This document shows positions 441 to 41,344 of a stretch of DNA of 64,000 nt, one piece after another; the first letter of the stretch is position 1, and each line of letters begins with the position of its first letter. This stretch comes from Patescibacteria group bacterium (lineage in GTDB: Bacteria > Patescibacteriota > Patescibacteriia > Magasanikbacterales > GWA2-37-8). The stretch covers positions 42,572 through 106,571 of the forward strand of contig JBAZKA010000003.1 of the NCBI GenBank assembly GCA_041651015.1, written 5' to 3'. The translations under genes were made by a program, and so were the position numbers. The notes beneath the pieces were generated by a model. The model was not told the DNA's origin. It saw only the letters and a list, made by a program, of their open reading frames with translations, and made no database searches.

Positions 441-491
441 ATCAACAAAAATCCCCCGCACATGCGAGGGATTTGTTTGTTAATTTAGATT

Positions 492-1595
492 TTATTCCCG
501 ACTTACACTCGCCACCACGCCTGCGGCCGCGAGACAAACAAGCATGGACGATCCACCGTGGCTTACGAATGGTAATGTCACTCCGGTTAACGGCAAAAGT
601 CCGACCATGGCCCCGATGTTCATACAAGCCTGCCAAAAAAACCAAATACTGACACCGCAAGCCAGCAAAAATCCGTAACGGTCCGGCGCTTCTTTGGCAA
701 TCTTGAGCCCGCGCCAAGCAATGAGTAAAATCAAACCGATTAAGGCGCACGAAATAACAAAACCCATTTCCTCGGAGATGATGGCAAAAATTGAATCCGC
801 TTCCACTTCGGGTAAGTACTGGTATTTTTGGCGCGAATGTCCGTAGCCTAGCCCGCCCCACCCGCCCGAACCAATGGCCAAATACGCTTGGCTCACATGA
901 TACCCAATGCCTTGCGGGTCAAGCTCGGGATGCAAAAATATTTTTAATCGGTCCGAACGATACGGCGCCGTGATAATGAGAATAATTACTGCGACTACGC
1001 CCGCGGCCGCGAGCGCGGCCAAAATCGGCTTTGATGTGCCGGCCACAAATAAAATTCCCACAACCATGCCTGCAATCACCACCAGTGTGCCGATGTCGGG
1101 CTGAACCGCGATGAGAAGCAAAGCTGGCGCGATCACGCCAAGCACGGGCAAGAGTCCGTTTTTCCAATCATGCAAATTTCTATCCGGGTCAGACAATAAA
1201 TCAGCCATGATAAATATAATCGCGAGTTTGGCCAATTCCGCCGGCTGAAAATGCATGAACCCTAAATTTATCCATGACGCCGCTCCTTTACCAAATGACG
1301 TGCCTATATGCGGAATAAAAACCATCACCAAAAGCGCCAGGCAGGCAATATAAAATACTCTACCGAGTTTACGCCACAAATCTGTATTAAAACGCGCGCA
1401 AATCAAAAACGCCAGCAAGCCCGGCAAGACGCCTTTGAGCAGTTGGGATTTTATAAAATAATATGTATCGCCGTGAACGCTGTAGCCGACCGGAGCGCTG
1501 GCCGAAGTCAAACAAAATAAACCAAAAGCCAACAATATTCCAATGCTGACCATATAAAATCTATCGGCTTTTTTGGCATTACCGGCAAGCGCCAT
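492..1595 (-). CDS. ftsW: SEDS-family peptidoglycan glycosyltransferase (FtsW/RodA/SpoVE)
   Basis: Polytopic membrane protein with the SEDS C-terminal signature '...GGWGGLGYGHSRQKYQYLPEVEADSIFAIISEEMGF'. Sits at the distal end of a dcw-like operon; ftsW rather than rodA is inferred from that context. Confidence 0.8.
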   Translation of the reverse strand: MALAGNAKKADRFYMVSIGILLAFGLFCLTSASAPVGYSVHGDTYYFIKSQLLKGVLPGLLAFLICARFNTDLWRKLGRVFYIACLALLVMVFIPHIGTSFGKGAASWINLGFMHFQPAELAKLAIIFIMADLLSDPDRNLHDWKNGLLPVLGVIAPALLLIAVQPDIGTLVVIAGMVVGILFVAGTSKPILAALAAAGVVAVIILIITAPYRSDRLKIFLHPELDPQGIGYHVSQAYLAIGSGGWGGLGYGHSRQKYQYLPEVEADSIFAIISEEMGFVISCALIGLILLIAWRGLKIAKEAPDRYGFLLACGVSIWFFWQACMNIGAMVGLLPLTGVTLPFVSHGGSSMLVCLAAAGVVASVSRE

Positions 1596-1597
1596 AT

Positions 1598-1951
1598 TTA
1601 CAAATTAATATCCACAATCAAATATACGGCTAAAGCCAAAAATAATTCCAGCACGGCCGTAAAAACCGTGAGGATGCGCGACAAAAGTTTGTCCGAGTTG
1701 AAAGTGTATATACCGGCGATAAAATTTATTATTACGAAAGCTAAGCCGACCACGGGCATAATCAAAATTCTCCACCATTCACCGACATAATCCACGCCAA
1801 AAATAATATTGTAATGCAAAAATAATGTACCGCCTTGCGTTCCCAAATTAAAAAAAATATACGGCCACATAAAAACTTGCGCCAAAGCCGATATGGCAAG
1901 CGGAACAAACACCCACGGGTCCTTAAAAAAAACTTTTAATAGGTAAAACAT
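1598..1951 (-). CDS. small integral membrane protein (117 aa), hypothetical
   Basis: Three or more hydrophobic helices. Tightly packed between ftsW (2-nt gap) and the Clp-like gene (3-nt gap). Confidence 0.45.
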   Translation of the reverse strand: MFYLLKVFFKDPWVFVPLAISALAQVFMWPYIFFNLGTQGGTLFLHYNIIFGVDYVGEWWRILIMPVVGLAFVIINFIAGIYTFNSDKLLSRILTVFTAVLELFLALAVYLIVDINL

Positions 1952-1954
1952 AAT

Positions 1955-4723
1955 TTAAGCGGTTATAATTTTTCCTCCCTCGCCGATAATAATTTTGTCT
2001 CTACGTTTGACCGAACCGGACAAAAGCAATTCGGCCAGTTTATTTTCCACGCGTTCTTGCAAAGCCCGTCGCATCGGACGCGCGCCAAAATCCGGATCAT
2101 AACCCACGTCAGCCAAGAATTCCAAAGCCGCATCTTCAATAATAAGTTCAATGCCTTTGGCCTCCAAATCTTTGGCCGTGCGCGCCAACATAAAGCCCGC
2201 GATTTGTTTGATGTTTTCCCGAGTTAGGGCTCGGAACAGCACAATACCGTCAAAACGATTTAAAAATTCGGGACGGAAATATTGTTTGAGCTCTCCATGC
2301 AACAACCGGTCTTTGATAGCATCAGACGACAAACCGGCGCGCAATTGCTCGGCCACATACGAAGTGCCGGCGTTTGAAGTGGCGATAATAATTATATTGG
2401 TGAAATCCACCACTCGTCCGGTGCTGTCGGTCAATCGCCCGTCATCCATCACTTGCAAAAATAAATTTAAAATATCCGGGTCGGCTTTTTCAATTTCATC
2501 CAACAGTAGAAGCGCGAATGGCTGACGGCGGATGGCTTCGGTCAAAATACCGGTTCCCTTTTCTCCGGGCGCACCAATCAGACGATACACACCGGACTTG
2601 TCCATGTATTCACTCATATCCAAACGGATCATTCGGTTCTCTCCGCCAAAATAAACTTCGGCAATGGTTTTAGCTAATTCTGTTTTGCCCACGCCGGTCG
2701 GGCCGAGAAATAAAAAGTTGGCAATCGGGCGGGTCTTGGAACGAATTTCCACGCGGGCTCGGCGCAAAGCGTTGGCCACCAAATCCACGGCTTCATCCTG
2801 GCCGACCACGCGTTTGTGCATTGCCTCTTCCAACAACATTAATTTACTTGATTCATCGGACGTCACGGTCGTGGCTGGAATGCCGGTTTTGTCTGCCACC
2901 ACCTGCGCCACCTCTTCACCCGAGACAAGGGAATCCGCGCCCTTTTTGTTGCGCGCATGCGAGCCGGCTTCACTGGCAATTTCTATGGCACTGCCCGGCA
3001 AACAATTTTCATGTAAAAATCTTTGCGCCAATTGCACGGATTTTTCCACCGCGTCATAAGCAAAAAATACTTGATTCTTGTGTTCAATCAAAGCGACTTT
3101 GGATTCCAAAACTTGGATGGCTGAGTTCTCGTCCATTTCGTGCACTTCCACTTTAGCAAAAACATTTCCCAACGCCGAATTGGAAATATAACGCGCAAAA
3201 TCTTCATCCGTACTCGTGGCAATGGTCAAAAACCGGCCGCCGCGTAAAAAATCCGCCAGTGTTCCGGCCACATCCAAACTACTACCTTCGCCGGCTGATA
3301 CGCCAATCAACTCGTGGACATTTGGAATATACAAAATCACATTTCGCGCGCGGGAAATTTCATTCATCATGGCAATCAAGCGTTCAATCGCGCCCGAAGC
3401 AGTCGTACCGGAAAGAAGTGAGGATACATTTAATTTAACCAAACGTTTGTCGCTCAAACGGCGAGGAACATCGTCTTCAATCATTTTGTCGGCCAATCCT
3501 TCCACAATACTGCGCTTGCCCACGCCATTAGAACCGGTGAGAAGCACGTTGGCCGCTCCGCCGTCCACCACGCGGAAAATTTCTTCAAATTCTTTTTCGC
3601 GCGCCACGCAATAATCAAATTGATTGAGTTGGGCCAAACGCGTCATGTCATCGCTAAAATTATTCAAATACGGCGTGGCTAAAGCGGTCATGGCTTTGTC
3701 CATGCCATATTTGGAGCGATGCGAACCCGCCCGCGCATGCTTCACATATTCGCGATATAATCTTTCACGGATACGCGCCCATTCCACCACGTTCATTAAT
3801 TTATTTTTTTCAATTTCCATGTCATACAATAATTCTTGCAGGGGCGGAGATTGTTTGATGCAGGCGACCAAAAGTTCGGTGACGCTCACGTATTCTTGAT
3901 GAGCGCTGTAGGCTTCTTCATACGCGCGAAATAAAATTTGCTGTATGTCAGGCGATAGAAGGGGCATGGAATGCGCGTTTTGCACTTGCGACGGCGCGTC
4001 AAAAAGCGAAACAATCCCCTCTTGCAATGATTTGGCCGGCAAACCAAGCCGGATAAAAATATTACCGATGCGATTAAACGAAAGTAAAGTGTAAAATAAA
4101 TGATTGGCTTCCACGTGCGCATAGTTTCTTTTGTCCGCGAAATTATAGGCTTCGGCCAGCACAGCCATGGCCTCATCGGTGAATGTCTTGTCAATTGCTA
4201 ATCGTTTACTGGAAGGAATTTTTTGGATTTGCTTCCAATCGGTTAGCGCCTCGGACTCTTCGGACGCGGACGTATGCTCATAATCAAATTTTTCCACCTC
4301 TAAATTTTTCTTGCGTTCGGTAATTTTGCGATACCAAAAATAAAGCAAAAACAAGGCGCCGAGACAAAATAAAAATTTGGAATAATACGGCAAACCTAGA
4401 ATCGCTGTCAGCCACTGTTCGGGCAGAGAAATAAAAGCCTGATAGGCGCCGGCGCGATAAGCAAAAAATATTGCCCACACCCAGAAGTTGAGCCAGAGGA
4501 CAATAAAAGTAATCCGGCGAATTTTGTTTCCGATTCTTCGGCCATTCACCATGGCGATGTTGTATCGCGTCAGAGGATATGTCCAAGCCAGCCATTTACC
4601 GCGCATCCGCACGCCCATGGAACGCCCACGGCATTCTTTGCAGACGCCAAAACCGCGCAAACCCGTTCCTTTGCACGAAGGGCATGTCGCGACATTCATT
4701 GGCGGTAGTTGCTCAAACAGCAT
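1955..4723 (-). CDS. ClpA/ClpC-like double-AAA+ ATPase with N-terminal C4 zinc ribbon and 2 TM helices; D1 degenerate, D2 intact
   Basis: N-terminus 'CPSCKGTG...CKECRG' (CxxC-x10-CxxC), then hydrophobic helices (about residues 70-130), then Clp_N-like repeats. D1 Walker A is 'GSNGVGKRS' (the Thr after Lys is Arg). D1 Walker B is 'ILYIPNVHE' where Clp has 'ILFIDELH'. D2 is canonical: 'GPTGVGKT', 'LLLDEIEKA', 'ATSN', and arginine finger 'GARPMRR'. Confidence 0.8.
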   Translation of the reverse strand: MLFEQLPPMNVATCPSCKGTGLRGFGVCKECRGRSMGVRMRGKWLAWTYPLTRYNIAMVNGRRIGNKIRRITFIVLWLNFWVWAIFFAYRAGAYQAFISLPEQWLTAILGLPYYSKFLFCLGALFLLYFWYRKITERKKNLEVEKFDYEHTSASEESEALTDWKQIQKIPSSKRLAIDKTFTDEAMAVLAEAYNFADKRNYAHVEANHLFYTLLSFNRIGNIFIRLGLPAKSLQEGIVSLFDAPSQVQNAHSMPLLSPDIQQILFRAYEEAYSAHQEYVSVTELLVACIKQSPPLQELLYDMEIEKNKLMNVVEWARIRERLYREYVKHARAGSHRSKYGMDKAMTALATPYLNNFSDDMTRLAQLNQFDYCVAREKEFEEIFRVVDGGAANVLLTGSNGVGKRSIVEGLADKMIEDDVPRRLSDKRLVKLNVSSLLSGTTASGAIERLIAMMNEISRARNVILYIPNVHELIGVSAGEGSSLDVAGTLADFLRGGRFLTIATSTDEDFARYISNSALGNVFAKVEVHEMDENSAIQVLESKVALIEHKNQVFFAYDAVEKSVQLAQRFLHENCLPGSAIEIASEAGSHARNKKGADSLVSGEEVAQVVADKTGIPATTVTSDESSKLMLLEEAMHKRVVGQDEAVDLVANALRRARVEIRSKTRPIANFLFLGPTGVGKTELAKTIAEVYFGGENRMIRLDMSEYMDKSGVYRLIGAPGEKGTGILTEAIRRQPFALLLLDEIEKADPDILNLFLQVMDDGRLTDSTGRVVDFTNIIIIATSNAGTSYVAEQLRAGLSSDAIKDRLLHGELKQYFRPEFLNRFDGIVLFRALTRENIKQIAGFMLARTAKDLEAKGIELIIEDAALEFLADVGYDPDFGARPMRRALQERVENKLAELLLSGSVKRRDKIIIGEGGKIITA

Positions 4724-4724
4724 A

Positions 4725-5084
4725 TTAAATAATTGTCTTGGAATGAATCATGCAGTACACAACCGCGACCGGTAGAGCCAGCCACACAAAAAACAATGCG
4801 ACGCAAACCAACATCCAGCCAACCAGCGCGATAGTCCGCGCTATCACTTGAATCAAACGCATCAGAAAACTGATAATTCGCCCTTGAATATCATACTGGC
4901 CAAACATGGGCACAAAAATATTCTTAAACCAAAGCCCGGGCGCGAGCGTGGCATTGCCGGACATAAATACTTGCGCGCACCAAACAATGGCGTGTTTGGC
5001 GCCAACCGTGTACCACCAAACCGGAAAATAAAATAAATCAAGAATGGCCAAGCCAAAAATTCTGGTAAATACAGTGATAAACAT
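4725..5084 (-). CDS. small integral membrane protein (119 aa), hypothetical
   Basis: Hydrophobic ORF. Its stop overlaps the start of the Clp-like gene (ATGA-type coupling). Confidence 0.45.
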   Translation of the reverse strand: MFITVFTRIFGLAILDLFYFPVWWYTVGAKHAIVWCAQVFMSGNATLAPGLWFKNIFVPMFGQYDIQGRIISFLMRLIQVIARTIALVGWMLVCVALFFVWLALPVAVVYCMIHSKTII

Positions 5085-5159
5085 ACGGGAGTATTATAAC
5101 ATAAAATGACAGAAAATAAAAAACCCATGGACATAGCCAAGGGTTTTCATATTTCATAA

Positions 5160-5588
5160 TTATTTTTTTGCCACCACTGACCCAACCGCGCTCAAATAGG
5201 TAATATTGTCCGCTCGGGTCAATCCGGCATTGGCAATTCGTTTCTCCAAAACAGGTAAGGAGTTGGCCGCCGCCATCTGCACATCCAAACCGCGAATTTC
5301 TTCATTGAGCGAAGCAACTTTATTTTGCAAATCACGCATTTCATAACCGCTGGTCGCGGCCGCGCTCACTTCGCGCACATACGCAAACACCAACAAGACT
5401 AGTATGCCCAGATAAATTCCGCGCGCCGCGCGCCCTTTTAACCATTCAGGGATGGCGCCACCGCGCGTTATTGTTTCCATATAACGGCGCAGGTAATTCA
5501 TCTGATATTTGATTTTTCGTTTTAGGGTCATAAAAAACGGTTGCAATATATTTGTCCCCTCTTCGCAAAAATTATTAAATTTTCTCAA
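5160..5588 (-). CDS. ftsL: FtsL-like septum formation initiator (single TM + coiled coil); true start probably at the internal Met near 5531
   Basis: Sits immediately downstream of rsmH as in dcw operons. Has a TM helix 'GIYLGILVLLVFAYV' followed by a coiled coil 'RDLQNKVASLNEEIRGLD'. The annotated start overlaps the rsmH 3' end by 14 nt. Confidence 0.5.
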   Translation of the reverse strand: MRKFNNFCEEGTNILQPFFMTLKRKIKYQMNYLRRYMETITRGGAIPEWLKGRAARGIYLGILVLLVFAYVREVSAAATSGYEMRDLQNKVASLNEEIRGLDVQMAAANSLPVLEKRIANAGLTRADNITYLSAVGSVVAKK

Positions 5589-6483
5589 TCACTCGCAATT
5601 TTGCGCTTCGCGAGCGTCGGTTTGCTTCTAATTCCGCCTCACCGGCCGTAATCGGTTTGGCTGTAATCAACTTGGCTTCACCGGACGACAGTGTCTGAAA
5701 ATAATGCTTTACAATTCTGTCCTCCAATGAATGAAAGGTGATCACCGCTAACCGCCCGTTGCCGGCCAAACTCTCGTAGGCTTGAGGCAATGCTTGTTTC
5801 AACACCTCAAGTTCGCGATTGACGGCAATGCGCAGGGCTTGAAAAACTTTGGTCGCCGGATGTATTCCGCCAATCCAAGGAATTTCTTTTTCAGTTTTCA
5901 ATTTACTCCGATAAACTTGTAAAATTATTTCCGCAAGCTCGCGCGTCGTCTTTATCTGATTAACTTTCCTTACAGCATCTATGGCTTCGGCAATTTCTTT
6001 TGATAAATCCTCCTCGCCAAATCGTCTGAAAATCTCCTCCAATTCTTTCACGTTCCATTCGTTTATAATTTTTTCCGCCGTCGTCTCCGAACCATTTACC
6101 GGCGTGTAGCGCATGTCCAAAGGTTCGTCACGTTCAAAACTAAACCCCCTGTTCCGTTCTTCAAATTGCGGAGATGACCAGCCCAAGTCCATTAAAATCG
6201 CGTCAGCCAATCCAAAATTATTGTCAACAATTATTTTTGATAAATTTTCAAAATTGTCGCGCGCGTAAACCACTTGCTCGCCGAATCTATATAAAAATCT
6301 TTTGGCGCGGAGCAATGATTCCGGGTCGGCGTCAATGCCGAGCAGTTTGCCTTTCGGGCCGATCGCTTCCAGAATCGCCTCGGCATGTCCCCCGTCGCCC
6401 AAGGTGCAGTCAATAACGCGACCGCCTTTTCTCAGGTTCATCGCTTCAATCGTTTCATGAATTAGGACCGGTTCGTGTCGCAT
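5575..6483 (-). CDS. rsmH: 16S rRNA (cytosine1402-N4)-methyltransferase RsmH/MraW
   Basis: 'HEPVLIHETIEAMNLRKGGRVIDCTLGDGGHAEAILE' and '...DLGWSSPQFE...' are the MraW signature. Follows mraZ. Confidence 0.9.
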   Translation of the reverse strand: MRHEPVLIHETIEAMNLRKGGRVIDCTLGDGGHAEAILEAIGPKGKLLGIDADPESLLRAKRFLYRFGEQVVYARDNFENLSKIIVDNNFGLADAILMDLGWSSPQFEERNRGFSFERDEPLDMRYTPVNGSETTAEKIINEWNVKELEEIFRRFGEEDLSKEIAEAIDAVRKVNQIKTTRELAEIILQVYRSKLKTEKEIPWIGGIHPATKVFQALRIAVNRELEVLKQALPQAYESLAGNGRLAVITFHSLEDRIVKHYFQTLSSGEAKLITAKPITAGEAELEANRRSRSAKLRVIEKI

Positions 6484-6504
6484 AACTTTATATCAATTTT
6501 CAAT

Positions 6505-6539
6505 ATTTCGTAATTTCGTAAATTTTCGTATTTCGTATC
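6505..6539. repeat. 4 tandem TTTCGTA(A) units in the mraZ-rsmH spacer
   Basis: 'atttcgtaatttcgtaaattttcgtatttcgtatc'. The same hexamer recurs in tandem at 13731-13768 and at 15706-15722. Confidence 0.5.
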
Positions 6540-6542
6540 TTT

Positions 6543-6974
6543 TTAGACTCCCAGCTCGGCCATTCTCTCGGCAATCTCTCCGCTTTCTTTTTCAGTTTTG
6601 GTTTTGAATTCGCCCCATTTGGTTTCATCCCAAATTTCCAAACGGTTATAAAGTCCGGCCACAATCACACTCTTTTTCAATCCGGCGAACTGGCGCAGAT
6701 ATTCAGGCAGGACCGCCCGGCCTTGTTTGTCCATTTCCACATCCATGGCGCCGGCAAGCATCAGGCGCGCGAACGCCCGGCTGTTAGCTTGGCTGATGGG
6801 CAAAGCCGCCAATTTCTCGGCCAGCTTTTCCCATTCTTTTTTGGTGTACAGAAACAAACAATTATCCAAACCTCTCGTCACCACCGCGCCTTTCACGAGT
6901 TCATTGCGAAACTTGACCGGTATGGCTAACCGGCCTTTTTCATCCAAATTGTGAGAGTATTCGCCGATGAACAT
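6543..6974 (-). CDS. mraZ: transcriptional regulator MraZ
   Basis: 'MFIGEYSHNLDEKGRLAIPVKFR' plus a second 'DKQGRAVLPEYLR' repeat (two MraZ/SpoVT-AbrB half-domains). Confidence 0.9.
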   Translation of the reverse strand: MFIGEYSHNLDEKGRLAIPVKFRNELVKGAVVTRGLDNCLFLYTKKEWEKLAEKLAALPISQANSRAFARLMLAGAMDVEMDKQGRAVLPEYLRQFAGLKKSVIVAGLYNRLEIWDETKWGEFKTKTEKESGEIAERMAELGV

Positions 6975-7016: not shown

Positions 7017-7236
7017 GCACAGTTTGTGGGGCGTAGCGCAAGCGAAGCCCCACCACTTCTCACCACTACACTCCATTTTATACCACAATCAAACACCCGT
7101 CAACACCATTCTCCATTTTTATTTTGGCTAATGTAAAACAAAAAATCCCGCTGTAAGCGGGATTGTGGATAAGTTTATTGATAAAATCAGGATATGCGCC
7201 TCCTCCATCACAGCAATGGCAGACCTCAACTACTTT

Positions 7237-7910: not shown

Positions 7911-9272
7911 TTACACCTCCACCGCCTCCTCCGGATCAGCCACGGAAACTCGCACGCCCAATTCACTCTTAATTTTATCGGCTAAAGGCTGGCTTTGCTC
8001 GGGCTCGCCGTGATTCAAGACCACGCATTTGGGCGTTGAACCGTTGTTTTTAATCCAATTAAAAATTTTAATTCTATCCGCGTGCGCCGAGAGCACATCA
8101 ATAAACTCCACATGGCATTTGACTGCCACGTGTTCATTCAAGACGTCCACATGAGTCGCGCCATCCAAAATCTTCCTGCCCGGCGTGTGCATGGCTTGGA
8201 AACCGGTGAGAAATAAAGTATTGCGATTATCAGACAAATAGCGCAACGCGTGATACTGGATGCGTCCGCCGTTCATCATACCCGAACCGGCAATAATAAT
8301 TTTTTGGCCAATGACCGTATTGATGCGCTTGGAATCATCGCGCGAACGGGTCATTTTCAATCCGCCGAATTGGAACAAATCATCACCGGACCGGATATAC
8401 CTTTCCGCTTCTTCATCAAAATATTGCGTGTAGCGGTTAAACACGCCCGTTGCGTTGATGGCGAGCGGGCTGTCCAAAAAAATCGGAATGTTCGGCGGTA
8501 AAACTTGGTCGCGGTCAATCAAATCATTTAAATCATACAAAATTTCCTGGGTGCGTTCCACGGAAAAAGCCGGCATCATCAAAGTACCGCCCCGCTCAAG
8601 CGCCTCGGCCACAACTTTTTTAATGGCAGACTTGCGGTCAATACTCGTGTCGTGTTCGCGGTCGCCATAAGTGGACTCGCAAATCAGCAAATAAACATCT
8701 TTGGGCAAGGCGTCGGTATCGCGTAAAATCGGGACATTCACATTGCCCAGGTCGCCGGAAAAAACAACTTTTTTGCCGGCTAAATTTATTTCCAAAAATG
8801 CCGAGCCGAAAATATGACCGGCTTCATAAAATTTAAACCTGATGTTTGATGCCGGTAAATCAAAATCATCATAATAATCCACTTGGCGCATCATACCGAT
8901 AACCTTGGCCACATCATCTAAATTATACAGAGCCGGCCGGCCAAATTTCCGGGCGTGATATTCCATGATTTCGCATGCATCCTCCAAAATCAATCTGGCG
9001 ATTTCAATAGTCGGCGGGGTGGCATAAATTTGCCCGCTGAATCCGCGCTTTATGAGCAACGGCAAGCGTCCGACATGGTCCAAATGCGCGTGCGTGACAA
9101 ACACAGCCGTGAGAGCGCTGGCGTCAAAAGCAAATGGGTCGGCATTACGGTCTTCCACAAAGTCCCCTCCCTGAAACATCCCGCAATCAACCAAAATTTT
9201 AATATCTCCCTCTTCCAGCAAACTGCACGAACCGGTGACTTCTCCGGCCGCGCCAAAAAATGATAATTTCAT
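7911..9272 (-). CDS. metallo-beta-lactamase / beta-CASP family ribonuclease (RNase J/CPSF-like, COG1236-type)
   Basis: 'FGAAGEVTGSCSLLEEGDIKILVDCGMFQGG' and 'HAHLDHVGRLP' (the HxHxDH MBL motif). About 450 aa with a beta-CASP C-terminus. Confidence 0.7.
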   Translation of the reverse strand: MKLSFFGAAGEVTGSCSLLEEGDIKILVDCGMFQGGDFVEDRNADPFAFDASALTAVFVTHAHLDHVGRLPLLIKRGFSGQIYATPPTIEIARLILEDACEIMEYHARKFGRPALYNLDDVAKVIGMMRQVDYYDDFDLPASNIRFKFYEAGHIFGSAFLEINLAGKKVVFSGDLGNVNVPILRDTDALPKDVYLLICESTYGDREHDTSIDRKSAIKKVVAEALERGGTLMMPAFSVERTQEILYDLNDLIDRDQVLPPNIPIFLDSPLAINATGVFNRYTQYFDEEAERYIRSGDDLFQFGGLKMTRSRDDSKRINTVIGQKIIIAGSGMMNGGRIQYHALRYLSDNRNTLFLTGFQAMHTPGRKILDGATHVDVLNEHVAVKCHVEFIDVLSAHADRIKIFNWIKNNGSTPKCVVLNHGEPEQSQPLADKIKSELGVRVSVADPEEAVEV

Positions 9273-9280
9273 GATATGAC

Positions 9281-9335
9281 GTTAAATAATCCGCTCTTGG
9301 CGAATCGCCCCCAGGGGGCATTTAACAGGTTAAAT
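9281..9335. repeat. Inverted-repeat element GTTAAAT...CGCCCCCAGGGGGC...ATTTAACAGG (family 2); second copy at 41148-41197
   Basis: 'cgcccccagggggcatttaacaggttaa' here versus 'cgcccccaaggggcgatttaacagggttaa' at 41172. Lies in the divergent promoter region between the RNase gene and the 9396 gene. Confidence 0.55.
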
Positions 9336-9395
9336 TATACCACATTTTACCCCCTACACAAATTCATCTATTTCTGATACAATGTCGCTATCATT

Positions 9396-10139
9396 ATGAA
9401 TCAAGAAGAACTGCTTAAAGACGTGGAAATAGTGGAGCCGCCAATGCAAGAGTTCAGAAAACGCGGACACTGGTTTGCCACTGCTTGCTTGTCCGGCTCA
9501 GGCTGTGTTTTGTTATTTATCGCGTCCATTGTCATTGGAATCAAATTTTATATTGGTGCCGGGCCGGCCACTGTCAAAAATCTGCCGACAAACTTCCCGA
9601 CCGATGTGCCGATTTACGACCAATACAACATTGACAAAATTACTTACATTTCCGGACGATATAAAAGCCGTTCTATGGAGATGGCTACTTTCTTTCCCAA
9701 ACTGGTCCTGTCGCCTGTGATTTCGCGCGAACAAAATGCGCCGTCAACCTCGGCCAAAGAAAACGGAAATATATTCAAAGAAGTCTTCCGCATGATCTTG
9801 AAACCAATCGGCGACTCTCGCGATATGATTCAAGTTGAATGGCGCGACATCACCAGCGATGTAAATACCATGATAACTTATTATAAAAGAAATTTAACGA
9901 CTAACGGTTTTACGATTGAATCAGAAACTCAAGGCAACAACTATCGTCAATTAACTTTCAGCCGGCAAGATAATTTGAGCGGGACAATTTTCGCGGAATT
10001 TTCCGACCAAAAAACCAAAAAAGTAACTTACGCGTTTATCATGGTAAATTTGCCCTATCCGGCCGAAGTCGTGAGCACGAACACCCAAACCCTCACCACT
10101 ACAACATCAACCGAACCTGAATCAAATGATACTCTCTAG
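9396..10139 (+). CDS. hypothetical N-terminally membrane-anchored protein with Thr-rich C-terminus (247 aa)
   Basis: TM 'CVLLFIASIVIGIKFYIG'. C-terminal 'TQTLTTTTSTEPESNDT'. Overlaps the murJ start, so probably cotranscribed. Confidence 0.45.
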   Translation: MNQEELLKDVEIVEPPMQEFRKRGHWFATACLSGSGCVLLFIASIVIGIKFYIGAGPATVKNLPTNFPTDVPIYDQYNIDKITYISGRYKSRSMEMATFFPKLVLSPVISREQNAPSTSAKENGNIFKEVFRMILKPIGDSRDMIQVEWRDITSDVNTMITYYKRNLTTNGFTIESETQGNNYRQLTFSRQDNLSGTIFAEFSDQKTKKVTYAFIMVNLPYPAEVVSTNTQTLTTTTSTEPESNDTL

Positions 10140-11745
10140 CTTAAACAACCAATCCAAAACCGTCACCGGCGCGGCTTTGATTATTGCGACCGCGACTTTG
10201 GCCAGCCGTTTTGTCGGCTTGATTCGCGACCGCATCCTCGCCCATTATTATGGCGCAGGCCCGGTCATGGACGCTTATTACGCGGCTTTCAAAGTTCCCG
10301 ACTTGGTTTATACTCTCTTAATTGTTGGCGCGCTGACAGCCGGATTCATTCCGATTTTTACTAAACTATTTTTTCAAGGCGAAGACAAAACTCCGGCTTG
10401 GCGCTTGGCTAATAATATTTTCAACATCGCCGGCGCGGCTCTGATAATTCTATGTAGCATCGGGATAATCCTATCCAAACACATTGTCCCCATTGTGGCG
10501 CCCGGATTTTCCGGCGATAATCAACATCTGGCGATTGCCTTTACCCGAATAATGTTTTTGTCTCCCCTGCTCCTCGGCCTATCTATGACCTTGGGCGGTG
10601 TCTTGCAATCGCTCCGCCGATTTGTGCTTTATTCCATTGCCCCGATTTTTTATAATTTGGGAATTATTATCGGGGTATCCGTGTTCGCCAAATTTATCGG
10701 CCCGACCGGAGTGGCCTGGGGTGTGGTGTTTGGCGCGGCCATGCACCTCGCGCTCATGGCCATTGGCGCCTACAACTCCGGCTGGAAATGGTCATGGGTT
10801 TTTGATTTAAAAGACGCAGGCACACGCACAGTGGGCAAACTTATGCTACCGCGCACAGTGGGCGTGGCTGTCTCCGAAATAAATATTTTGATTACCACCA
10901 TGCTCGCGTCGCTCCTGCCTATTGGCAGTGTGGCGGTGTACAATTACGCCGCCAACCTACAAGCGGTTCCGACAGGCATTATCGGCATCCCGTTTGCCCT
11001 CGCCGTATTTCCGGTTTTGTCCGCGGCTGCGGCCAGGAATGATATGGCGGACTTTACCAAGAACCTGTCGTCCACCATCGGCAAAATTCTATTTTTGATT
11101 ATTCCCCTTTCCATTATTTTGCTTTTACTCCGCGCGCAAATTGTCCGCGTTATTCTCGGCACCGGGCAATTTGATTGGACCGCCACCACCAATACGGCCA
11201 ACGCGCTCGCGTTTTTTGCTTTTGGACTTTTCGCCCAATCGCTCGTCCCACTGTTTGCCCGCGCATTTTTTTCGCTGTCGGACACCAAGACGCCTCTCGC
11301 CATTGGCGCGTTTTCCGAAATCATCGCCATTGGTTCGGCTTTAATTTTAATGCGTAGTTTGGGTGTGGCGGGATTGGCCTTGGCTTCATCCATTGGCGCG
11401 ATTATCAACGCGTCTTTGCTTGCGGTATTTCTTCGCGTACAAATACCGACATTTAATGGCGCAAAAATCATTGCTTCGCTTTTAAAAATTTCCGCGGCCG
11501 CGATTATCATGGCCGTGGTGGTTCAAATCTTAAAATATCCGTTAAATAAAATTTTTAACTTGGATTATTTCTGGGGCGTCTTTGGCCAAGGCGTAATTGC
11601 CGGAGTTGTCGGCCTCGTAGTTTACGCGGGAATATGCTGGTTGCTCAAAGTGCCGGAGTTAACTGAAATAAAACAATCATTCGCCCGCCGTTGGTTTAGA
11701 GCGCGGAGTGTCGGCGCCACGGATATTATTGATTCAAAGGAATGA
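10126..11745 (+). CDS. murJ: lipid II flippase MurJ (MviN)
   Basis: 'ATATLASRFVGLIRDRILAHYYGAGPVMDAYYAAFKVPDLVYTLLIVGALTAGFIPIF' is the MurJ N-terminal signature. About 14 TM helices. Confidence 0.85.
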   Translation: MILSSLNNQSKTVTGAALIIATATLASRFVGLIRDRILAHYYGAGPVMDAYYAAFKVPDLVYTLLIVGALTAGFIPIFTKLFFQGEDKTPAWRLANNIFNIAGAALIILCSIGIILSKHIVPIVAPGFSGDNQHLAIAFTRIMFLSPLLLGLSMTLGGVLQSLRRFVLYSIAPIFYNLGIIIGVSVFAKFIGPTGVAWGVVFGAAMHLALMAIGAYNSGWKWSWVFDLKDAGTRTVGKLMLPRTVGVAVSEINILITTMLASLLPIGSVAVYNYAANLQAVPTGIIGIPFALAVFPVLSAAAARNDMADFTKNLSSTIGKILFLIIPLSIILLLLRAQIVRVILGTGQFDWTATTNTANALAFFAFGLFAQSLVPLFARAFFSLSDTKTPLAIGAFSEIIAIGSALILMRSLGVAGLALASSIGAIINASLLAVFLRVQIPTFNGAKIIASLLKISAAAIIMAVVVQILKYPLNKIFNLDYFWGVFGQGVIAGVVGLVVYAGICWLLKVPELTEIKQSFARRWFRARSVGATDIIDSKE

Positions 11746-34664: not shown

Positions 34665-35768
34665 TTACAGCTCATTTTTTAATTCTTCCAAAAGTTGTTT
34701 GGCTTTTTTACTTAATTTTTTCGGCACTAGTATTTTTATTTTAACATAATGGTCTCCCCTGCCCGAACGGCCCAATTGGGTAATACCGTGACCCCGAAGG
34801 CGGATAAGCTGGCCTGATTCCGTGCCCTCGGGCACGACCACGGTCAATTCACCATCCAAGGTCGGCACTTGAATTTTATCACCAAGCGCGGCTTGAGAAA
34901 AATTTATTTCCGATTCAGTGTAAACATCGAAATTTTCCCGATGAAAAACTTTTTGCGGTTTAACATGCGCTCGCACATATAAATCCCCGGACATACCGCC
35001 GTGAGGCGCGGCCTCGCCGTGGCCGGTCAAACGAATCGCTTGGGCGTCATCAATGCCAGCCGGAATCTTGACGTTCAAATCCACAGACTTGGATAAAATT
35101 CCGTCTCCGCCACAATGTTTACATTTGGCCGATGGTTTTTCGCCCCGCCCATGGCAATCCGGACAAGTAGCCACAGTTTGCATCACGCCAAGAAATGTTC
35201 GTTGTTGTTGAACCACTTGACCCTTGCCGTGACAAGTACTGCAGGTATCCATCTTACTGCCCGGTTCGCTACCCGAACCATGACAGACATCACATTTACT
35301 TTGTTTACGCAATGAAATATCTTTTTGTACGCCAAACGCCGCTTCGACAAAAGTAATTTCCACATCAACCTGAATATCAGACCCTCTTCGCCCGCCTCGG
35401 CCCGAGGCCGATCCGCCTCCACCAAAACCAAACACATCGCCAAATATGTCGCCGAAATCGAATCCGCCAAAATTGACATTGCCAAATCCCCCGCCTTGGC
35501 CGCTTCTGGCCGCGCGCATAAATTCTTCCCAGCTCGCTCCGCCAAATCCGCCTTGCTGATCAAAATCAGCGCCAAACTGATCGTACTTGGCGCGTTTCTC
35601 CGCATCGCCGACGACCTGAAAAGCCTCGTTTATTTCCTTAAACTTTTTTTCATCACCACCTGGTCTGTCCGGGTGATGTTGCATGGCCAATTTCTTGAAG
35701 GCCTTTTTTATTTCGTCTTGCGTGGCGGATTTATCCACGCCGAGCATTTTGTAGTAGTCTTTGGACAT
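34665..35768 (-). CDS. dnaJ: chaperone DnaJ
   Basis: J-domain 'YYKMLGV...HPDR', a G/F region, and four 'CxxCxGxG' zinc-finger repeats. Confidence 0.92.
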   Translation of the reverse strand: MSKDYYKMLGVDKSATQDEIKKAFKKLAMQHHPDRPGGDEKKFKEINEAFQVVGDAEKRAKYDQFGADFDQQGGFGGASWEEFMRAARSGQGGGFGNVNFGGFDFGDIFGDVFGFGGGGSASGRGGRRGSDIQVDVEITFVEAAFGVQKDISLRKQSKCDVCHGSGSEPGSKMDTCSTCHGKGQVVQQQRTFLGVMQTVATCPDCHGRGEKPSAKCKHCGGDGILSKSVDLNVKIPAGIDDAQAIRLTGHGEAAPHGGMSGDLYVRAHVKPQKVFHRENFDVYTESEINFSQAALGDKIQVPTLDGELTVVVPEGTESGQLIRLRGHGITQLGRSGRGDHYVKIKILVPKKLSKKAKQLLEELKNEL

Positions 35769-35774
35769 GAAAAA

Positions 35775-37727: not shown

Positions 37728-37759
37728 ATATAATGTGTTAAATTATTATTTATTTTAAA

Positions 37760-38827
37760 TTAGTTACCCATCGCCTTCCTCAATTCCGGATCTAAATCGT
37801 CTTCCGCATACTGCTTTGCAATTTTGTCAATAACAATGAATGGCTGCGGACCTTCACAATAAGTGGAAATTTCTGACAACGATACTTCCGCCATTTTTGT
37901 GGGGGATGTTTTTCTTAATTTATTCAATAAATCTTCGCTTACATTATCTTCAGTTAAATATGTAAGTAAACCGTTATTGGCAAGCGCGGCTGCATCACCA
38001 GAGGCAAATAGGCGTTGAAAGATTATGGGTAAGTTATCTGTATCAAAATTATAAATATGAAATACATATGGGGCACAATAGGGGTTGTAAGGATTGTTGT
38101 CGGCGTCGCATTTTTCTTCTTCAAACCAGCCACGCACGGTGGTACTGCCGCTATATATTGGCCCAAAACAATCATCCATTGGGTTACCATGAGTCATTTC
38201 CCAATATTTGTTATCGCCGTTCGTGTTCTTGTCGCTATCTATTACGGGAAACTGCCTAATAGAAACGTAAAGACTGTCCCTGCCAGACATGGCCGATTGG
38301 ATATTTAAATTTATCGGATTATCCACGGTAGCCTTTTTTAGCCCCGATAACACGCTCTCTTGAGATATGAACAATGGATCCCAGCGCAATACAACTTTGC
38401 TAACATTTCCGCCATAAACTTTTATCGGCAATTTATCCAAATCAGACTGATCAATGCCTAAGACGTACGCATTGTCGTAACCGTCCCCCAATTCATTAAC
38501 CCATATTACTTTGATTGACGCATTACCAATATATGAAGAATCTCCGATTTTTTTCCATGTTCCGACAGATTGAAAGGCAGTGCTCGCATCATTTTGTTCA
38601 GGCTCTAATATGCCAGCGTCACTATTGCGAGCATCATACATATTGCTCTGATTCTCTTCAATATTTTCGTCAGCAACGTTGGATGAAGACCGATTAATGT
38701 CCTGTGATTTATTTTTGGCCAACAAAAACCCGAAATAAATCACAACTACTATCACCCCAACAAAAACTACCGCCGCGATAATATGCACGGTCAATAATTT
38801 TTTGTTGTTTTTTAGGATTTCGAACAT
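37760..38827 (-). CDS. hypothetical N-terminally anchored exported protein (355 aa), 32 bp upstream of dnaK
   Basis: TM 'LLTVHIIAAVVFVGVIVVVIYFGFLLA'. Cys-containing, Asn/Asp-rich ectodomain. No motif recognised. Confidence 0.45.
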   Translation of the reverse strand: MFEILKNNKKLLTVHIIAAVVFVGVIVVVIYFGFLLAKNKSQDINRSSSNVADENIEENQSNMYDARNSDAGILEPEQNDASTAFQSVGTWKKIGDSSYIGNASIKVIWVNELGDGYDNAYVLGIDQSDLDKLPIKVYGGNVSKVVLRWDPLFISQESVLSGLKKATVDNPINLNIQSAMSGRDSLYVSIRQFPVIDSDKNTNGDNKYWEMTHGNPMDDCFGPIYSGSTTVRGWFEEEKCDADNNPYNPYCAPYVFHIYNFDTDNLPIIFQRLFASGDAAALANNGLLTYLTEDNVSEDLLNKLRKTSPTKMAEVSLSEISTYCEGPQPFIVIDKIAKQYAEDDLDPELRKAMGN

Positions 38828-38831
38828 ATTT

Positions 38832-39044: not shown

Positions 39045-39061
39045 ATGACTAAAATAAATTA

Positions 39062-39532: not shown

Positions 39533-39543
39533 ATTATTATCTC

Positions 39544-39572
39544 TTGACAAAACCGACAATCTGTATTATAAT
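39544..39572 (+). promoter_or_regulatory. perfect-consensus sigma70 promoter TTGACA-17-TATAAT (plus strand, orphan)
   Basis: 'TTGACAaaaccgacaatctgtatTATAAT'. Both neighbouring genes are on the minus strand. Confidence 0.6.
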
Positions 39573-39579
39573 TCAATTA

Positions 39580-41340: not shown

Positions 41341-41344
41341 AATT

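What the first reader, a model, noticed from the sequence alone, without database searches (positions are those of the whole stretch)
1598..5588. Divisome operon with a membrane-anchored Clp-like AAA+ protein where ftsI/mur genes normally sit
The canonical dcw order is mraZ-rsmH-ftsL-ftsI-murE-murF-mraY-murD-ftsW. Here ftsL is followed by a 119-aa membrane protein, a 922-aa membrane-anchored double-AAA+ Clp-like protein, a 117-aa membrane protein and then ftsW. Neighbouring genes overlap or are separated by only 2-3 nt, so they are likely translationally coupled. No PBP or Mur ligase lies between ftsL and ftsW. A protein unfoldase/remodeller embedded in a divisome operon is not a described arrangement that I know of.
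Basis: partly seen in the sequence, partly recalled or inferred. Interest (0 to 1): 0.72.

Follow-up and report, generated by a model that had tools for sequence, protein, structure and literature searches.

The report
Membrane-anchored Clp-like ATPase with small partner
Next to the cell-division genes of a tiny uncultured bacterium (Magasanikbacteria) sits a conserved gene pair, a small membrane protein plus a membrane-anchored relative of the Clp/Hsp100 protein-unfolding machines that has lost most hallmarks of unfolding, and it is probably transcribed from its own promoter rather than as part of the division operon.

Summary
The gene order is real: mraZ, rsmH, an FtsL-like gene, a 119-aa membrane protein (TM119), a 922-aa Clp/Hsp100-like protein, a 117-aa membrane protein (TM117) and ftsW, all on the minus strand, with no PBP or Mur ligase between.

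It is not a one-off. In 79 species-level relatives, nearly all Magasanikbacteria, TM119 lies directly upstream of the Clp gene in 76/76 loci. mraZ-rsmH lie upstream in 62/66.

- A terminator-like hairpin and a conserved extended -10 promoter lie between ftsL and TM119. The hairpin occurs in 61/78 relatives and the promoter in 66/78, against about 0-1 of 61-64 upstream of rsmH or ftsL. TM119-Clp-TM117-ftsW is therefore probably its own transcription unit.
- In distant relatives the TM119+Clp pair persists (7/7), usually followed by a WecA/MraY-family transferase (6/8). mraZ-rsmH is present in only 1 of 8.
- The ATPase is not a canonical unfoldase. Ring 1 lacks all catalytic motifs. Ring 2 is catalytically intact. 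Neither ring has the pore-loop tyrosine, and there is no M-domain.

The best reading is a new membrane-bound Hsp100 variant, with an obligate partner, acting on cell-envelope membrane enzymes. The mechanism is inferred, not shown.

The parts
7144..7164 (-). Terminator-like hairpin (9-bp stem plus T-run) ending the upstream unit, just before the mraZ promoter region
7075..7103 (-). Sigma-70-like promoter candidate (TTGACG-17-TAAAAT) upstream of mraZ
   Evidence: a consensus match only
6543..6974 (-). mraZ (143 aa)
   Evidence: PF02381 and TIGR00242, above cut-off
5575..6483 (-). rsmH/mraW 16S rRNA methyltransferase (302 aa)
   Evidence: PF01795 and TIGR00006, above cut-off
5160..5501 (-). FtsL-like bitopic protein. 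It is 113 aa from the ATG at 5501; the open frame extends to the TTG at 5588. One TM segment is followed by a coiled-coil-like region
   Evidence: FtsL_Actino, E 1.6e-5, below cut-off; single TM; gene caller start; its position after rsmH is conserved in 61 loci
5111..5148 (-). Hairpin (dG about -12.5 kcal/mol) plus T-run, an intrinsic-terminator-like element after ftsL
   Evidence: A comparable element lies in the 150 nt upstream of TM119 in 61 of 78 loci, against 0/61 upstream of ftsL and 1/64 upstream of rsmH
5093..5101 (-). Extended -10 promoter TGTTATAAT, 8 nt before the TM119 ATG (leaderless-type geometry)
   Evidence: the motif occurs 9 times in the window against 3.5 expected, and by my reading of the site coordinates against the ORF starts, about 6 of the 9 lie just upstream of a same-strand gene start; present within 90 nt upstream of TM119 in 66 of 78 loci, against 0-1 of 61-64 for the rsmH and ftsL controls
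4725..5084 (-). TM119: small membrane protein and obligate partner of the Clp-like ATPase. It forms a long helical hairpin (helices 2-47 and 66-114) with an invariant tip loop (W52, F57, P59, M60, G62, Q63, D65, G68, R69)
   Evidence: 172 homologues, no Pfam family; AlphaFold pLDDT 93.9; directly upstream of Clp in 76/76 loci; also in 7/7 distant loci, E 1e-24 to 1e-43
1955..4723 (-). Membrane-anchored Clp/Hsp100-like ATPase (922 aa)
4631..4684 (-). N-terminal C4 zinc ribbon (C14, C17, C28, C31) of the Clp-like protein
   Evidence: the Cys residues are present in 111-112 of 121 members, and the rest are N-terminally truncated; beta strands in the model
4325..4516 (-). Transmembrane helical hairpin (about aa 70-133) with basic residues on both cytoplasmic flanks
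   Evidence: The topology follows from the positive-inside rule and is an inference
2939..3676 (-). D1 ring, a degenerate pseudo-ATPase. Walker A is GSNGVGKRS, Walker B is ILYIPN (not DE), the pore loop is SGTTASGAIE (no Tyr), and the Arg-finger motif ERRF is replaced by NVFAK
1958..2926 (-). D2 ring, with intact catalytic motifs (GPTGVGKT, LLLLDEIEKA, N784, R823, GARPMRR). Its pore loop is shortened to GAPGEKGTG in place of GAPPGYVGYEEGG. The C-terminal ClpB_D2-small domain is present
1598..1951 (-). TM117: a three-TM small protein specific to this subclade, always paired with the downstream ftsW
   Evidence: (only 11 clusters); unrelated to TM119
492..1595 (-). ftsW (SEDS family, 367 aa)
   Evidence: TIGR02614 347.6 bits, above the 337.5 cut-off; the RodA model scores below its cut-off
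449..474 (-). Strong terminator-like hairpin (11-bp stem plus T-run) ending the TM119-Clp-TM117-ftsW unit
   Evidence: one search shows that the next genes lie on the opposite strand

Best explanation
The region holds two adjacent transcription units.

Unit 1 is mraZ-rsmH-ftsL-like. It ends at a hairpin plus T-run.

Unit 2 starts at a conserved extended -10 promoter 8 nt before the TM119 start codon. It runs TM119 -> Clp-like ATPase -> TM117 -> ftsW with gaps of 1-3 nt and ends at a strong terminator.

The core of unit 2 is a two-gene module found in many Patescibacteria. It consists of a small membrane protein (the TM119 family) and an Hsp100/Clp-family ATPase. The ATPase is tethered to the membrane by an N-terminal zinc ribbon plus a transmembrane hairpin.

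Shown from sequence and models:
- The first AAA+ ring has lost its Walker A Thr, its Walker B Asp-Glu, its arginine fingers and its pore tyrosine.
- The second ring keeps every catalytic motif, but its pore loop is short and has no aromatic residue.
- There is no M-domain and no protease domain.

Inferred:
- The protein forms a hexamer on the cytoplasmic face of the membrane, driven by ring 2 only.
- The conserved cytoplasmic tip of the TM119 helical hairpin docks on it, as an adaptor or regulator.
- Its clients are the polytopic enzymes of lipid-linked cell-envelope synthesis encoded just downstream. Here that is FtsW. In most relatives it is a WecA/MraY-family phosphotransferase.
- It would assemble, activate or extract these enzymes by ATP-driven remodelling rather than by classical tyrosine-mediated threading.

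Its position after mraZ-rsmH-ftsL in Magasanikbacteria suggests coordination with division. That is a lineage-level feature, not the core of the system.
For: Gene identities.

Family and architecture:
- More than 120 full-length homologues with 100% coverage.
- Residue-level alignment to ClpC.
- Motif statistics over 121 members and over 32 distant members.
- AlphaFold model with pLDDT 81, showing the zinc ribbon, the TM hairpin, Clp_N, a linker helix, D1 and D2, and no M-domain.
- Foldseek top hits are ClpC, ClpB and ClpA.

Module conservation:
- TM119 is directly upstream of Clp in 76/76 species loci, mostly with gaps of -11 to +12 nt.
- It is also directly upstream in 7/7 distant loci.

Neighbours:
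- mraZ-rsmH lie upstream in 62/66 loci.
- A GT4 transferase follows within 200 nt in 57 of 66 loci that have one downstream, and in 6/8 distant loci.
- TM117-ftsW follow only in this subclade.

Separate transcription:
- Hairpin plus T-run and TGTTATAAT lie in the 75-nt gap.
- The same pair occurs in order in 52/78 loci, with controls near zero.
- Unrelated genes are inserted at this junction in 16/65 loci.
- Bracketing terminators lie at 7164..7144 and 474..449.
Against: - No experiment or expression data were available. The promoter and terminator calls are sequence predictions, and read-through from ftsL is possible.
- The client assignment rests only on gene neighbourhood. Two of the eight distant loci (L087, L094) have no GT4 or ftsW next to the module.
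- Most of the synteny comes from one order-level lineage, so part of it may reflect shared descent rather than selection.
- Without aromatic pore loops it is unclear how any substrate would be gripped.
- The TM119-Clp contact has not been modelled.
- A 600-aa class of relatives lacks D2 altogether. That is hard to reconcile with a purely ATP-driven function.
Confidence: 0.45

Rival explanations
1. A single mraZ->ftsW divisome operon contains a membrane-anchored Clp unfoldase that is an integral divisome component, taking the place of ftsI and the mur genes and translationally coupled to its neighbours.
For: - The order mraZ-rsmH-ftsL-TM119-Clp holds in 62/66 loci.
- Gaps of 1-3 nt join TM119, Clp, TM117 and ftsW.
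- No strong internal terminator was reported by the generic scan.
Against: - A hairpin plus T-run and a conserved extended -10 promoter lie exactly at the ftsL/TM119 junction, in the window and in most relatives.
- Unrelated genes, some on the opposite strand, are inserted there in 16/65 loci.
- mraZ-rsmH are absent upstream in 7 of 8 distant loci, although the TM119-Clp pair remains in the 7 that have upstream sequence.
- ftsW follows only in a narrow subclade.
- The hallmarks of an unfoldase are missing.
Confidence: 0.2
2. A general membrane-proximal proteostasis factor, working like a tethered ClpB or like FtsH without the protease. It would have no specific tie to the envelope or to division, and its genomic position would be historical accident.
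For: - It belongs to the Hsp100 family and has a Clp_N domain.
- It is widely conserved in genome-reduced Patescibacteria: 189 species by pattern scan and 151 clusters at 50% identity carrying the N-terminal module.
- Two distant loci have unrelated neighbours.
Against: - It has no M-domain for DnaK coupling, no pore tyrosines and a dead D1.
- It has an obligate dedicated partner, TM119.
- It is repeatedly adjacent to GT4 or ftsW in lineages whose upstream context differs.
- It is not part of the HrcA-GrpE-DnaK-DnaJ cluster in the same window.
Confidence: 0.22
3. The ATPase subunit of a ClpP protease (ClpA/ClpC/ClpE type), as public records annotate it.
For: - Source names read 'ATP-dependent Clp protease ATP-binding subunit (ClpC)'.
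- The best sequence and fold matches are ClpC.
- At the ClpP-loop position the Magasanikbacteria proteins have A-G-[LVI]. This is one substitution away from the IGL of ClpA (recalled from memory) and from the AGF seen in the S. aureus ClpC alignment.
Against: - Scores are far below the ClpA, ClpB and ClpC equivalog cut-offs.
- The tripeptide is not conserved in distant members, which have EGE, IGN, RGT, KGT or KHV at that position.
- There are no pore tyrosines to feed a protease.
- No clpP gene was found in the window or in the sampled neighbourhoods.
Confidence: 0.07
4. A motor for a non-protein substrate at the membrane, for example a lipid-linked glycan, teichoic-acid-like polymer or nucleic acid. 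Its remodelled, Lys/Glu-containing pore loops would contact the substrate in place of aromatic residues.
For: - Aromatic pore residues are lost in both rings while the D2 ATPase site is invariant.
- The D2 pore loop is hypervariable across the family.
- The module is persistently linked to a polyprenyl-phosphate sugar-phosphate transferase.
Against: - No Hsp100 is known to do this (my own knowledge).
- A hypervariable pore loop argues against a conserved substrate-contact role.
- The Clp_N domain is typical of protein and adaptor recognition.
Confidence: 0.05

Closest known systems
ClpC / ClpA / ClpE (class I Clp/Hsp100 ATPases that partner with ClpP)
   Same: - The domain order is Clp_N, D1, D2, D2-small.
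- These are the best sequence matches (E about 1e-127) and the best fold matches.
- Like ClpA, it has no long M-domain.
- Like ClpE and ClpX (from memory), it starts with a C4 zinc-binding module.
   Different: - It is membrane-anchored by a TM hairpin.
- D1 is catalytically dead.
- Neither ring has a pore-loop tyrosine.
- The ClpP-docking tripeptide is not conserved across the family.
- It scores far below the NCBIfam cut-offs (ClpA 518 against 993).
- It has a dedicated small membrane partner.
ClpB / Hsp104 disaggregases
   Same: - The D2 module is highly similar: TIGR03346 scores 558.7 bits overall, with the D2 region (residues 599-917) as the best-matching stretch.
- The ClpB_D2-small domain is present.
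- There is no protease partner loop of the classical kind.
   Different: - There is no coiled-coil M-domain, because the region matching ClpC residues 405-461 is absent.
- The pore loops have no tyrosine.
- D1 is inactive.
- It is membrane-tethered.
FtsH (with its membrane adaptors such as LapB/YciM that control envelope-synthesis enzymes)
   Same: This is a functional analogy only. Both are hexameric AAA+ proteins held at the cytoplasmic face by N-terminal TM helices. Both work with small membrane partners near committed steps of envelope biogenesis (from my own knowledge of the E. coli system).
   Different: - It belongs to a different AAA+ clade.
- It has no M41 peptidase domain.
- It has two rings, not one.
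- It has no aromatic pore loop.
Torsins (eukaryotic Clp-D2-like, membrane-associated AAA+ proteins with LAP1/LULL1 partners)
   Same: - Both are related to Clp/Hsp100 D2 and are membrane-associated.
- Both lack aromatic pore-loop residues.
- Both depend on a membrane partner (PMC5425593 and PMC4358337, surfaced).
   Different: - Here the arginine finger and all other D2 catalytic residues are retained.
- The partner TM119 is a helical hairpin, not an AAA-like fold.
- The protein is bacterial, has two rings and faces the cytoplasm.
Canonical dcw cluster (mraZ-rsmH-ftsL-ftsI-murE-murF-mraY-murD-ftsW...)
   Same: The 5' end (mraZ, rsmH, an FtsL-like gene) and ftsW are present in the same orientation.
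   Different: - ftsI, the mur ligases and a bona fide mraY are absent from the locus.
- A predicted terminator and promoter split it.
- In most relatives the gene after Clp is a WecA-like GT4, followed by DUF192 and L21, not by dcw genes.

Membership tests
Clp/Hsp100 class I AAA+ (two-ring) | Two tandem AAA+ modules with a C-terminal D2-small domain | tested here: met
   - AAA_2 E 5.7e-53, ClpB_D2-small E 9.4e-25 and AAA_lid_9.
- Alignment to ClpC over D1 and D2.
- The model and Foldseek hits.
Clp/Hsp100 class I AAA+ (two-ring) | N-terminal Clp_N repeat domain | tested here: met
   - PF02861 is precomputed for the identical protein and for homologues.
- Residues 180-330 align to the ClpC N-domain.
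- Pfam did not list it at E<0.01 for the window protein itself.
Clp/Hsp100 class I AAA+ (two-ring) | Catalytically competent D1 (Walker A GK[ST], Walker B hhhhDE, arginine fingers) | tested here: not met
   - Walker A is GK[RK][ST].
- Walker B is [HNQP]-N.
- ERRF is replaced by NVF[TA]K.
- This holds in more than 110 of 121 members. Among the 32 distant members no Walker B is Asp-Glu, though about 5 keep a Walker A GK[ST].
Clp/Hsp100 class I AAA+ (two-ring) | Aromatic pore-loop residue (KYRG in D1, GYVG in D2) for substrate threading | tested here: not met
   - The D1 loop is AGTTPAGAVE.
- The D2 loop is GAPGEKGTG, 4 aa shorter, in 110 or more of 121 members.
- The D2 loop is hypervariable in distant members. 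Only P0394 keeps a Tyr at the canonical position (PPGYG) and P0370 has Phe there (PPGFEG).
ClpB/Hsp104 | Coiled-coil M-domain inserted in D1; score above the ClpB equivalog cut-off | tested here: not met
   - There is no counterpart of ClpC residues 405-461.
- The model goes from the D1 lid straight into D2.
- TIGR03346 scores 558.7 bits against a cut-off of 1232.
ClpA/ClpC/ClpE (ClpP partners) | ClpP-docking loop with a [LIV]-G-[FL] tripeptide in D2 | tested here: inconclusive
   - The window protein has R-A-G-L-S-S.
- The clade consensus is [AN]-G-[LVI], close to the AGF of S. aureus ClpC.
- The tripeptide is not conserved in distant members.
- Presence of clpP in the genome could not be tested.
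ClpA/ClpC/ClpE (ClpP partners) | Equivalog-level sequence score | tested here: not met
   TIGR02639 (ClpA) scores 518.2 bits against a cut-off of 993. ClpK and ClpG score about 430 against 1900.
FtsH | N-terminal TM helices, a single AAA module and an M41 zinc-peptidase domain | tested here: not met
   A TM hairpin is present, but there is no Peptidase_M41 hit and there are two Hsp100-type rings.
dcw operon member | Lies within the conserved mraZ...ftsW gene order | tested here: met
   The window order recurs, with mraZ-rsmH upstream, in 62/66 Magasanikbacteria loci. Only 1 of 8 distant loci has it.
dcw operon member | Co-transcribed with mraZ-rsmH-ftsL | tested here: inconclusive
   Sequence predicts a terminator at 5148..5111 and a promoter at 5101..5093 between ftsL and TM119. 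Both are conserved in relatives. No transcript data were available.
FtsW (SEDS) | Score above the FtsW equivalog cut-off | tested here: met
   TIGR02614 scores 347.6 bits against 337.5. The RodA model scores 292.9 against 336.7.
FtsL | Bitopic protein with a periplasmic coiled coil, encoded after rsmH; family model hit | tested here: inconclusive
   - One TM segment at residues 53-71 of the ORF.
- Its position is conserved.
- NF053549 scores only 24.7 bits against a cut-off of 55.
- No Pfam hit and no PDB sequence hit.
MraY (for the gene that follows Clp in most relatives) | Score above the MraY equivalog cut-off | tested here: not met
   TIGR00445 scores 43-85 bits against a cut-off of 192. 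The WecA model scores higher (87-121 bits), also below its own cut-off. Only Pfam Glycos_transf_4 is met.

The most novel reading that the evidence does not exclude
TM119 and the tethered Hsp100 form a previously unrecognised class of membrane AAA+ machine specific to Patescibacteria. It has one live ring, no aromatic pore loops and a dedicated helical-hairpin adaptor. It would control the assembly or turnover of the lipid-carrier-dependent cell-wall enzymes (FtsW and a WecA/MraY-like transferase), and in Magasanikbacteria it would link this control to division. That would make it a new regulatory layer of envelope growth in ultra-small bacteria, working by a non-threading mechanism.
Probability: 0.25. 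Interest if true: 0.8.

Novelty: new variant of a known kind. Interest (0 to 1): 0.6.

Why it matters
Hsp100/Clp proteins are textbook soluble threading machines. This family differs in being permanently membrane-anchored, running on one ring, lacking pore tyrosines and always being encoded with a small membrane partner. If it is active, it would extend what this fold can do. It would also offer a bacterial counterpart to the poorly understood Torsin type of AAA+ protein.

For the biology of Patescibacteria, the family marks a conserved lineage-specific module next to division and cell-envelope genes. These organisms have minimal genomes and a largely unknown division machinery. The public annotation, 'Clp protease ATP-binding subunit', is likely to be misleading.

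The analysis also corrects the operon picture. The module seems to have its own leaderless-type promoter. Its deepest-conserved neighbour is a polyprenyl-phosphate sugar-phosphate transferase, not the divisome.

Tried and rejected
- One-off rearrangement: rejected by synteny in 62/66 species loci.
- ftsI or mur genes hidden in the gaps: the ORFs inserted between ftsL and TM119 in relatives are TMEM43-like, an ABC-2 permease, an SLH protein or unknowns, never PBPs. Forty ORFs in the rest of the window, including most of the larger ones, gave no PBP, Mur ligase or ClpP; several mid-sized and all short ORFs were not scanned.
- TM117 as a paralogue of TM119: rejected (BLASTP E 0.71; hmmsearch E 9).
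- The afdb50 fold library was unavailable.
- Calling the downstream GT4 'MraY': rejected, because it scores better against WecA and below both cut-offs.
- DnaJ-type CxxCxGxG finger: the window sequence fits, but the family consensus does not keep the Gly residues. I therefore treat it as a generic C4 zinc ribbon.
- Literature: six searches found no description of a membrane-anchored Hsp100 or of a Clp gene in a dcw cluster of CPR bacteria. One search failed on syntax.
- The whole-genome question of where ftsI, murC-F, mraY and clpP lie could not be answered.

Full report
**1. Observation**

The minus strand of window 492..6974 carries seven genes in this order:
- mraZ (6974..6543)
- rsmH (6483..5575)
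- an FtsL-like ORF (5588 or 5501..5160)
- a 119-aa membrane protein, TM119 (5084..4725)
- a 922-aa Clp-like protein (4723..1955)
- a 117-aa membrane protein, TM117 (1951..1598)
- ftsW (1595..492)

Family scans gave the following:
- MraZ, RsmH and FtsW score above curated cut-offs. FtsW scores 347.6 bits against TIGR02614 (cut-off 337.5).
- The Clp-like protein hits AAA_2, ClpB_D2-small and AAA_lid_9, but it falls far below every Clp equivalog cut-off.
- The FtsL-like ORF gets only a weak FtsL_Actino hit.
- The two small proteins have no family.

The gaps are 1, 3 and 2 nt for TM119/Clp/TM117/ftsW. They are 75 nt for ftsL/TM119 and 59 nt for mraZ/rsmH. The rsmH/ftsL overlap depends on a TTG start. 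Gene callers use the ATG at 5501. No PBP or Mur ligase lies in the locus or among the 40 ORFs scanned in the rest of the window, which include most of the larger ones but not all.

**2. Source and conservation**

The closest full-length homologues (57-93% identity, 100% coverage, 915-935 aa) come from Candidatus Magasanikbacteria / Patescibacteria MAGs. They are annotated 'ATP-dependent Clp protease ATP-binding subunit' or 'AAA family ATPase'. TM117 is 100% identical to NCBI 'hypothetical protein WC457_02895 [Patescibacteria group bacterium]'. The source contig is 186 kb.

I built a profile of the family-specific N-terminal 600 residues and scanned one genome per GTDB species. This found 189 species, of which the best 80 loci were fetched. 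tblastn with the seven window proteins gave these counts:
- TM119 lies directly upstream of Clp in 76 of 76 loci with upstream sequence, mostly with gaps of -11 to +12 nt.
- mraZ and rsmH lie upstream on the same strand in 62 of 66 loci.
- The FtsL-like gene is detectable in 61 loci.
- TM117-ftsW follow Clp only in the window's own subclade (5 species loci, plus L001 and L084).

TM117 has only 11 clusters in 5.8 billion proteins. In 57 loci the next gene, within 200 nt, is a Glycos_transf_4 protein, usually followed by DUF192 and L21. That GT4 scores better against WecA (87-121 bits) than against MraY (43-85 bits), and both scores are below cut-off. I call it a WecA/MraY-family transferase, not MraY.

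**3. Probably two transcription units**

The 75-nt ftsL/TM119 gap contains:
- a hairpin (AAAACCCTTGG...CCATGGGTTTT, dG -12.5) followed by a T-run;
- TGTTATAAT, ending 8 nt before the TM119 ATG.

TGNTATAMT occurs 9 times in the window against 3.5 expected. By my reading of the site coordinates against the ORF starts, about six of the nine lie just upstream of a same-strand gene start. It is therefore plausibly this organism's -10 element.

| Region tested | Extended -10 within 90 nt | Terminator-like element |
|---|---|---|
| Upstream of TM119 | 66/78 | 61/78 |
| Upstream of rsmH (control) | 0/64 | 1/64 |
| Upstream of ftsL (control) | 1/61 | 0/61 |

Both elements occur in the right order upstream of TM119 in 52/78 loci. 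The TG mostly sits at -17 or -28 from the ATG, which implies a leaderless or very short leader.

In 16 of 65 loci the junction has expanded by 0.45-3.5 kb. The inserted ORFs are unrelated (TMEM43-like, ABC-2 permease, SLH protein), and some are on the opposite strand. Strong terminator-like hairpins bracket the whole region at 7164..7144 and 474..449. After ftsW, the genes switch strand.

I conclude that mraZ-rsmH-ftsL and TM119-Clp-TM117-ftsW are most likely separate but adjacent units. This remains a sequence-based prediction.

**4. Anatomy of the ATPase**

Alignment to ClpC, statistics over 121 family members and the AlphaFold model (pLDDT 81) show the following, from N to C terminus:
- **Zinc ribbon:** a 4-Cys ribbon (C14, C17, C28, C31), invariant wherever the N-terminus is complete.
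- **TM hairpin:** two long helices (53-90 and 113-138) form a transmembrane hairpin with basic flanks.
- **N-domain and linker:** a Clp_N domain (about 177-301), then a family-specific conserved 30-residue helix and the motif GMDKAMTA.
- **D1:** it has lost every functional signature. Walker A is GxxGVGK[RK][ST], Walker B is hhhh[HNQP]N, the pore loop is AGTTPAGAVE in place of AGxKYRGEFE, and ERRF is replaced by NVF[TA]K.
- **M-domain:** absent.
- **D2:** Walker A, Walker B, sensor 1, the arginine finger and sensor 2 are invariant. The pore loop GAPPGYVGYEEGG is replaced by GAPGEKGTG. That loop is four residues shorter, has no aromatic residue and is conserved in 110 or more of 121 members.
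- **ClpP-loop position:** it reads [AN]-G-[LVI]. This resembles but does not match [LIV]-G-[FL].

Foldseek finds ClpC, ClpB and ClpA as the nearest structures. The protein is therefore a genuine Hsp100 derivative, but it is not a canonical unfoldase.

**5. The partner**

TM119 has 172 detectable homologues, all 'hypothetical'. Invariant residues cluster in YFPxWWY and in W52...F57-x-P-M-x-G-Q-x-D-x-x-G-R69. AlphaFold predicts, at pLDDT 93.9, a hairpin of two helices of about 47 residues each. The hydrophobic ends (about 2-24 and 91-112) can span the membrane. The conserved, net-basic tip would project about 25 residues out of it. I infer that the tip is cytoplasmic, from the positive-inside rule. 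Neither sequence nor fold searches identify a known family.

**6. The wider family changes the interpretation**

A profile of the zinc-ribbon-plus-TM module finds 151 cluster representatives at 50% identity. These include about 35 distant full-length proteins (888-963 aa). They also include a 583-631-aa class that stops at the D1/D2 junction and so lacks D2.

I retrieved neighbourhoods for eight distant members:
- A TM119 homologue lies directly upstream in 7 of 7 loci with upstream sequence (E 1e-24 to 1e-43).
- A GT4 gene lies directly or nearly directly downstream in 6 of 8. It is followed by DUF192 in three and by YceG/MltG in one.
- mraZ-rsmH-ftsL lies upstream in only one (L088).
- L089 has the ATP synthase operon upstream instead.

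In these distant proteins D1 is likewise degenerate. The D2 pore loop is hypervariable, and only P0394 keeps the canonical Tyr.

The deeply conserved unit is therefore TM119 + tethered Hsp100, usually followed by GT4. Its placement behind mraZ-rsmH-ftsL is a feature of Magasanikbacteria. The ftsW linkage is specific to this subclade.

**7. Mechanism**

Shown:
- The protein is membrane-tethered.
- One ring is catalytically intact.
- There are no aromatic pore loops, no M-domain and no protease domain.
- A membrane partner is always encoded next to it.
- It is recurrently adjacent to polytopic enzymes that use polyprenyl-phosphate-linked substrates.

Inferred:
- A hexamer sits on the inner face of the membrane and uses D2 hydrolysis to remodel its clients. 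That could mean assembling, activating or extracting them.
- The clients are envelope-synthesis membrane proteins: FtsW here and GT4 elsewhere.
- TM119 acts as adaptor or regulator.

Closest comparisons:
- FtsH with its membrane adaptors is a functional analogy.
- Torsin with LAP1 is a structural analogy: Clp-D2-like, membrane-bound and lacking an aromatic pore (PMC5425593, PMC4358337).
- The protein is a member of neither family.

I put about 0.45 on this overall reading. The descriptive part is secure and the client and mode of action are weak.

Rivals:
- an integral divisome unfoldase in a single operon (0.2);
- a general membrane proteostasis factor (0.22);
- a ClpP partner, as annotated (0.07);
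- a motor for a non-protein substrate (0.05).

**8. Novelty and limits**

Six full-text searches found no description of this family or arrangement. The library is incomplete, so prior description elsewhere cannot be excluded. I rate the finding as a new variant of a known kind (Hsp100/Clp).

The main gaps are:
- there are no transcript or protein data;
- whole genomes could not be scanned for ftsI, the mur genes, mraY or clpP;
- no complex was modelled;
- most of the synteny evidence comes from a single order-level lineage.

Noticed in passing
P0286, P0289-P0291, P0293, P0304, P0310, P0313; locus L090 401-2221: A 583-631-aa class of relatives keeps the zinc ribbon, TM hairpin, Clp_N and degenerate D1, but ends at the D1/D2 junction. 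It therefore lacks the only catalytically intact ring. In L090 it is still followed by the GT4 gene.
   Followed up: partly
window 5093..5101 (-) and the equivalent sites in L004-L083: The extended -10 TGnTATAAT sits 8 nt before the TM119 ATG. In many relatives the spacing is the same (TG at -17), with a second mode at -28. This implies leaderless or near-leaderless mRNAs. There is no Shine-Dalgarno sequence before TM119 in the window.
   Followed up: partly
window 34665..42040 (-): A heat-shock gene cluster: HrcA (42040..41345), GrpE (41340..40723), DnaK (37727..35775) and DnaJ (35768..34665). Several small unannotated ORFs (39062..40721) and a 355-aa ORF with no family hit (38827..37760) lie between GrpE and DnaK.
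   Followed up: no
window 7911..11745, and L001, L003, L084: A conserved neighbour set lies upstream of mraZ: MurJ, a protein of about 247 aa with no or only weak family hits, and a beta-CASP/RMMBL metallo-beta-lactamase RNase (RNase J-like). It is kept in Magasanikbacteria relatives.
   Followed up: no
record titles of L004, L007, L009, L013 and others, and L019: Many GTDB-representative MAGs carrying this Magasanikbacteria-type locus are titled 'uncultured Gammaproteobacteria bacterium' (TPA assemblies). One is titled 'Candidatus Udaeobacter sp.'. Those titles are probably wrong or the contigs are mis-binned.
   Followed up: no
L003 6291-7157: An IS1595-family DDE transposase is inserted just upstream of mraZ in Parcubacteria group bacterium Gr01-1014_13.
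   Followed up: no
L084 11592-13801 (beyond window position 1): Directly after ftsW, on the opposite strand, lie a 205-aa unknown, a SET-domain protein, a Maf-family protein and a 140-aa unknown. A block of sugar epimerase, GT2 glycosyltransferase and related genes follows. A similar GT2-rich block follows ftsW in L001, L004 and L043.
   Followed up: no
L091 5138-7226: In one distant relative the GT4 that follows the Clp-like gene overlaps a YceG/MltG (peptidoglycan terminase) gene. This hints that the GT4 may act in peptidoglycan synthesis there.
   Followed up: no
window 42337..45764 (-): A membrane-biogenesis neighbourhood: a Band 7/SPFH protein, a YidC-family insertase (60KD_IMP), a 231-aa unknown, a CDP-alcohol phosphatidyltransferase and a cyclophilin-type PPIase.
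   Followed up: no
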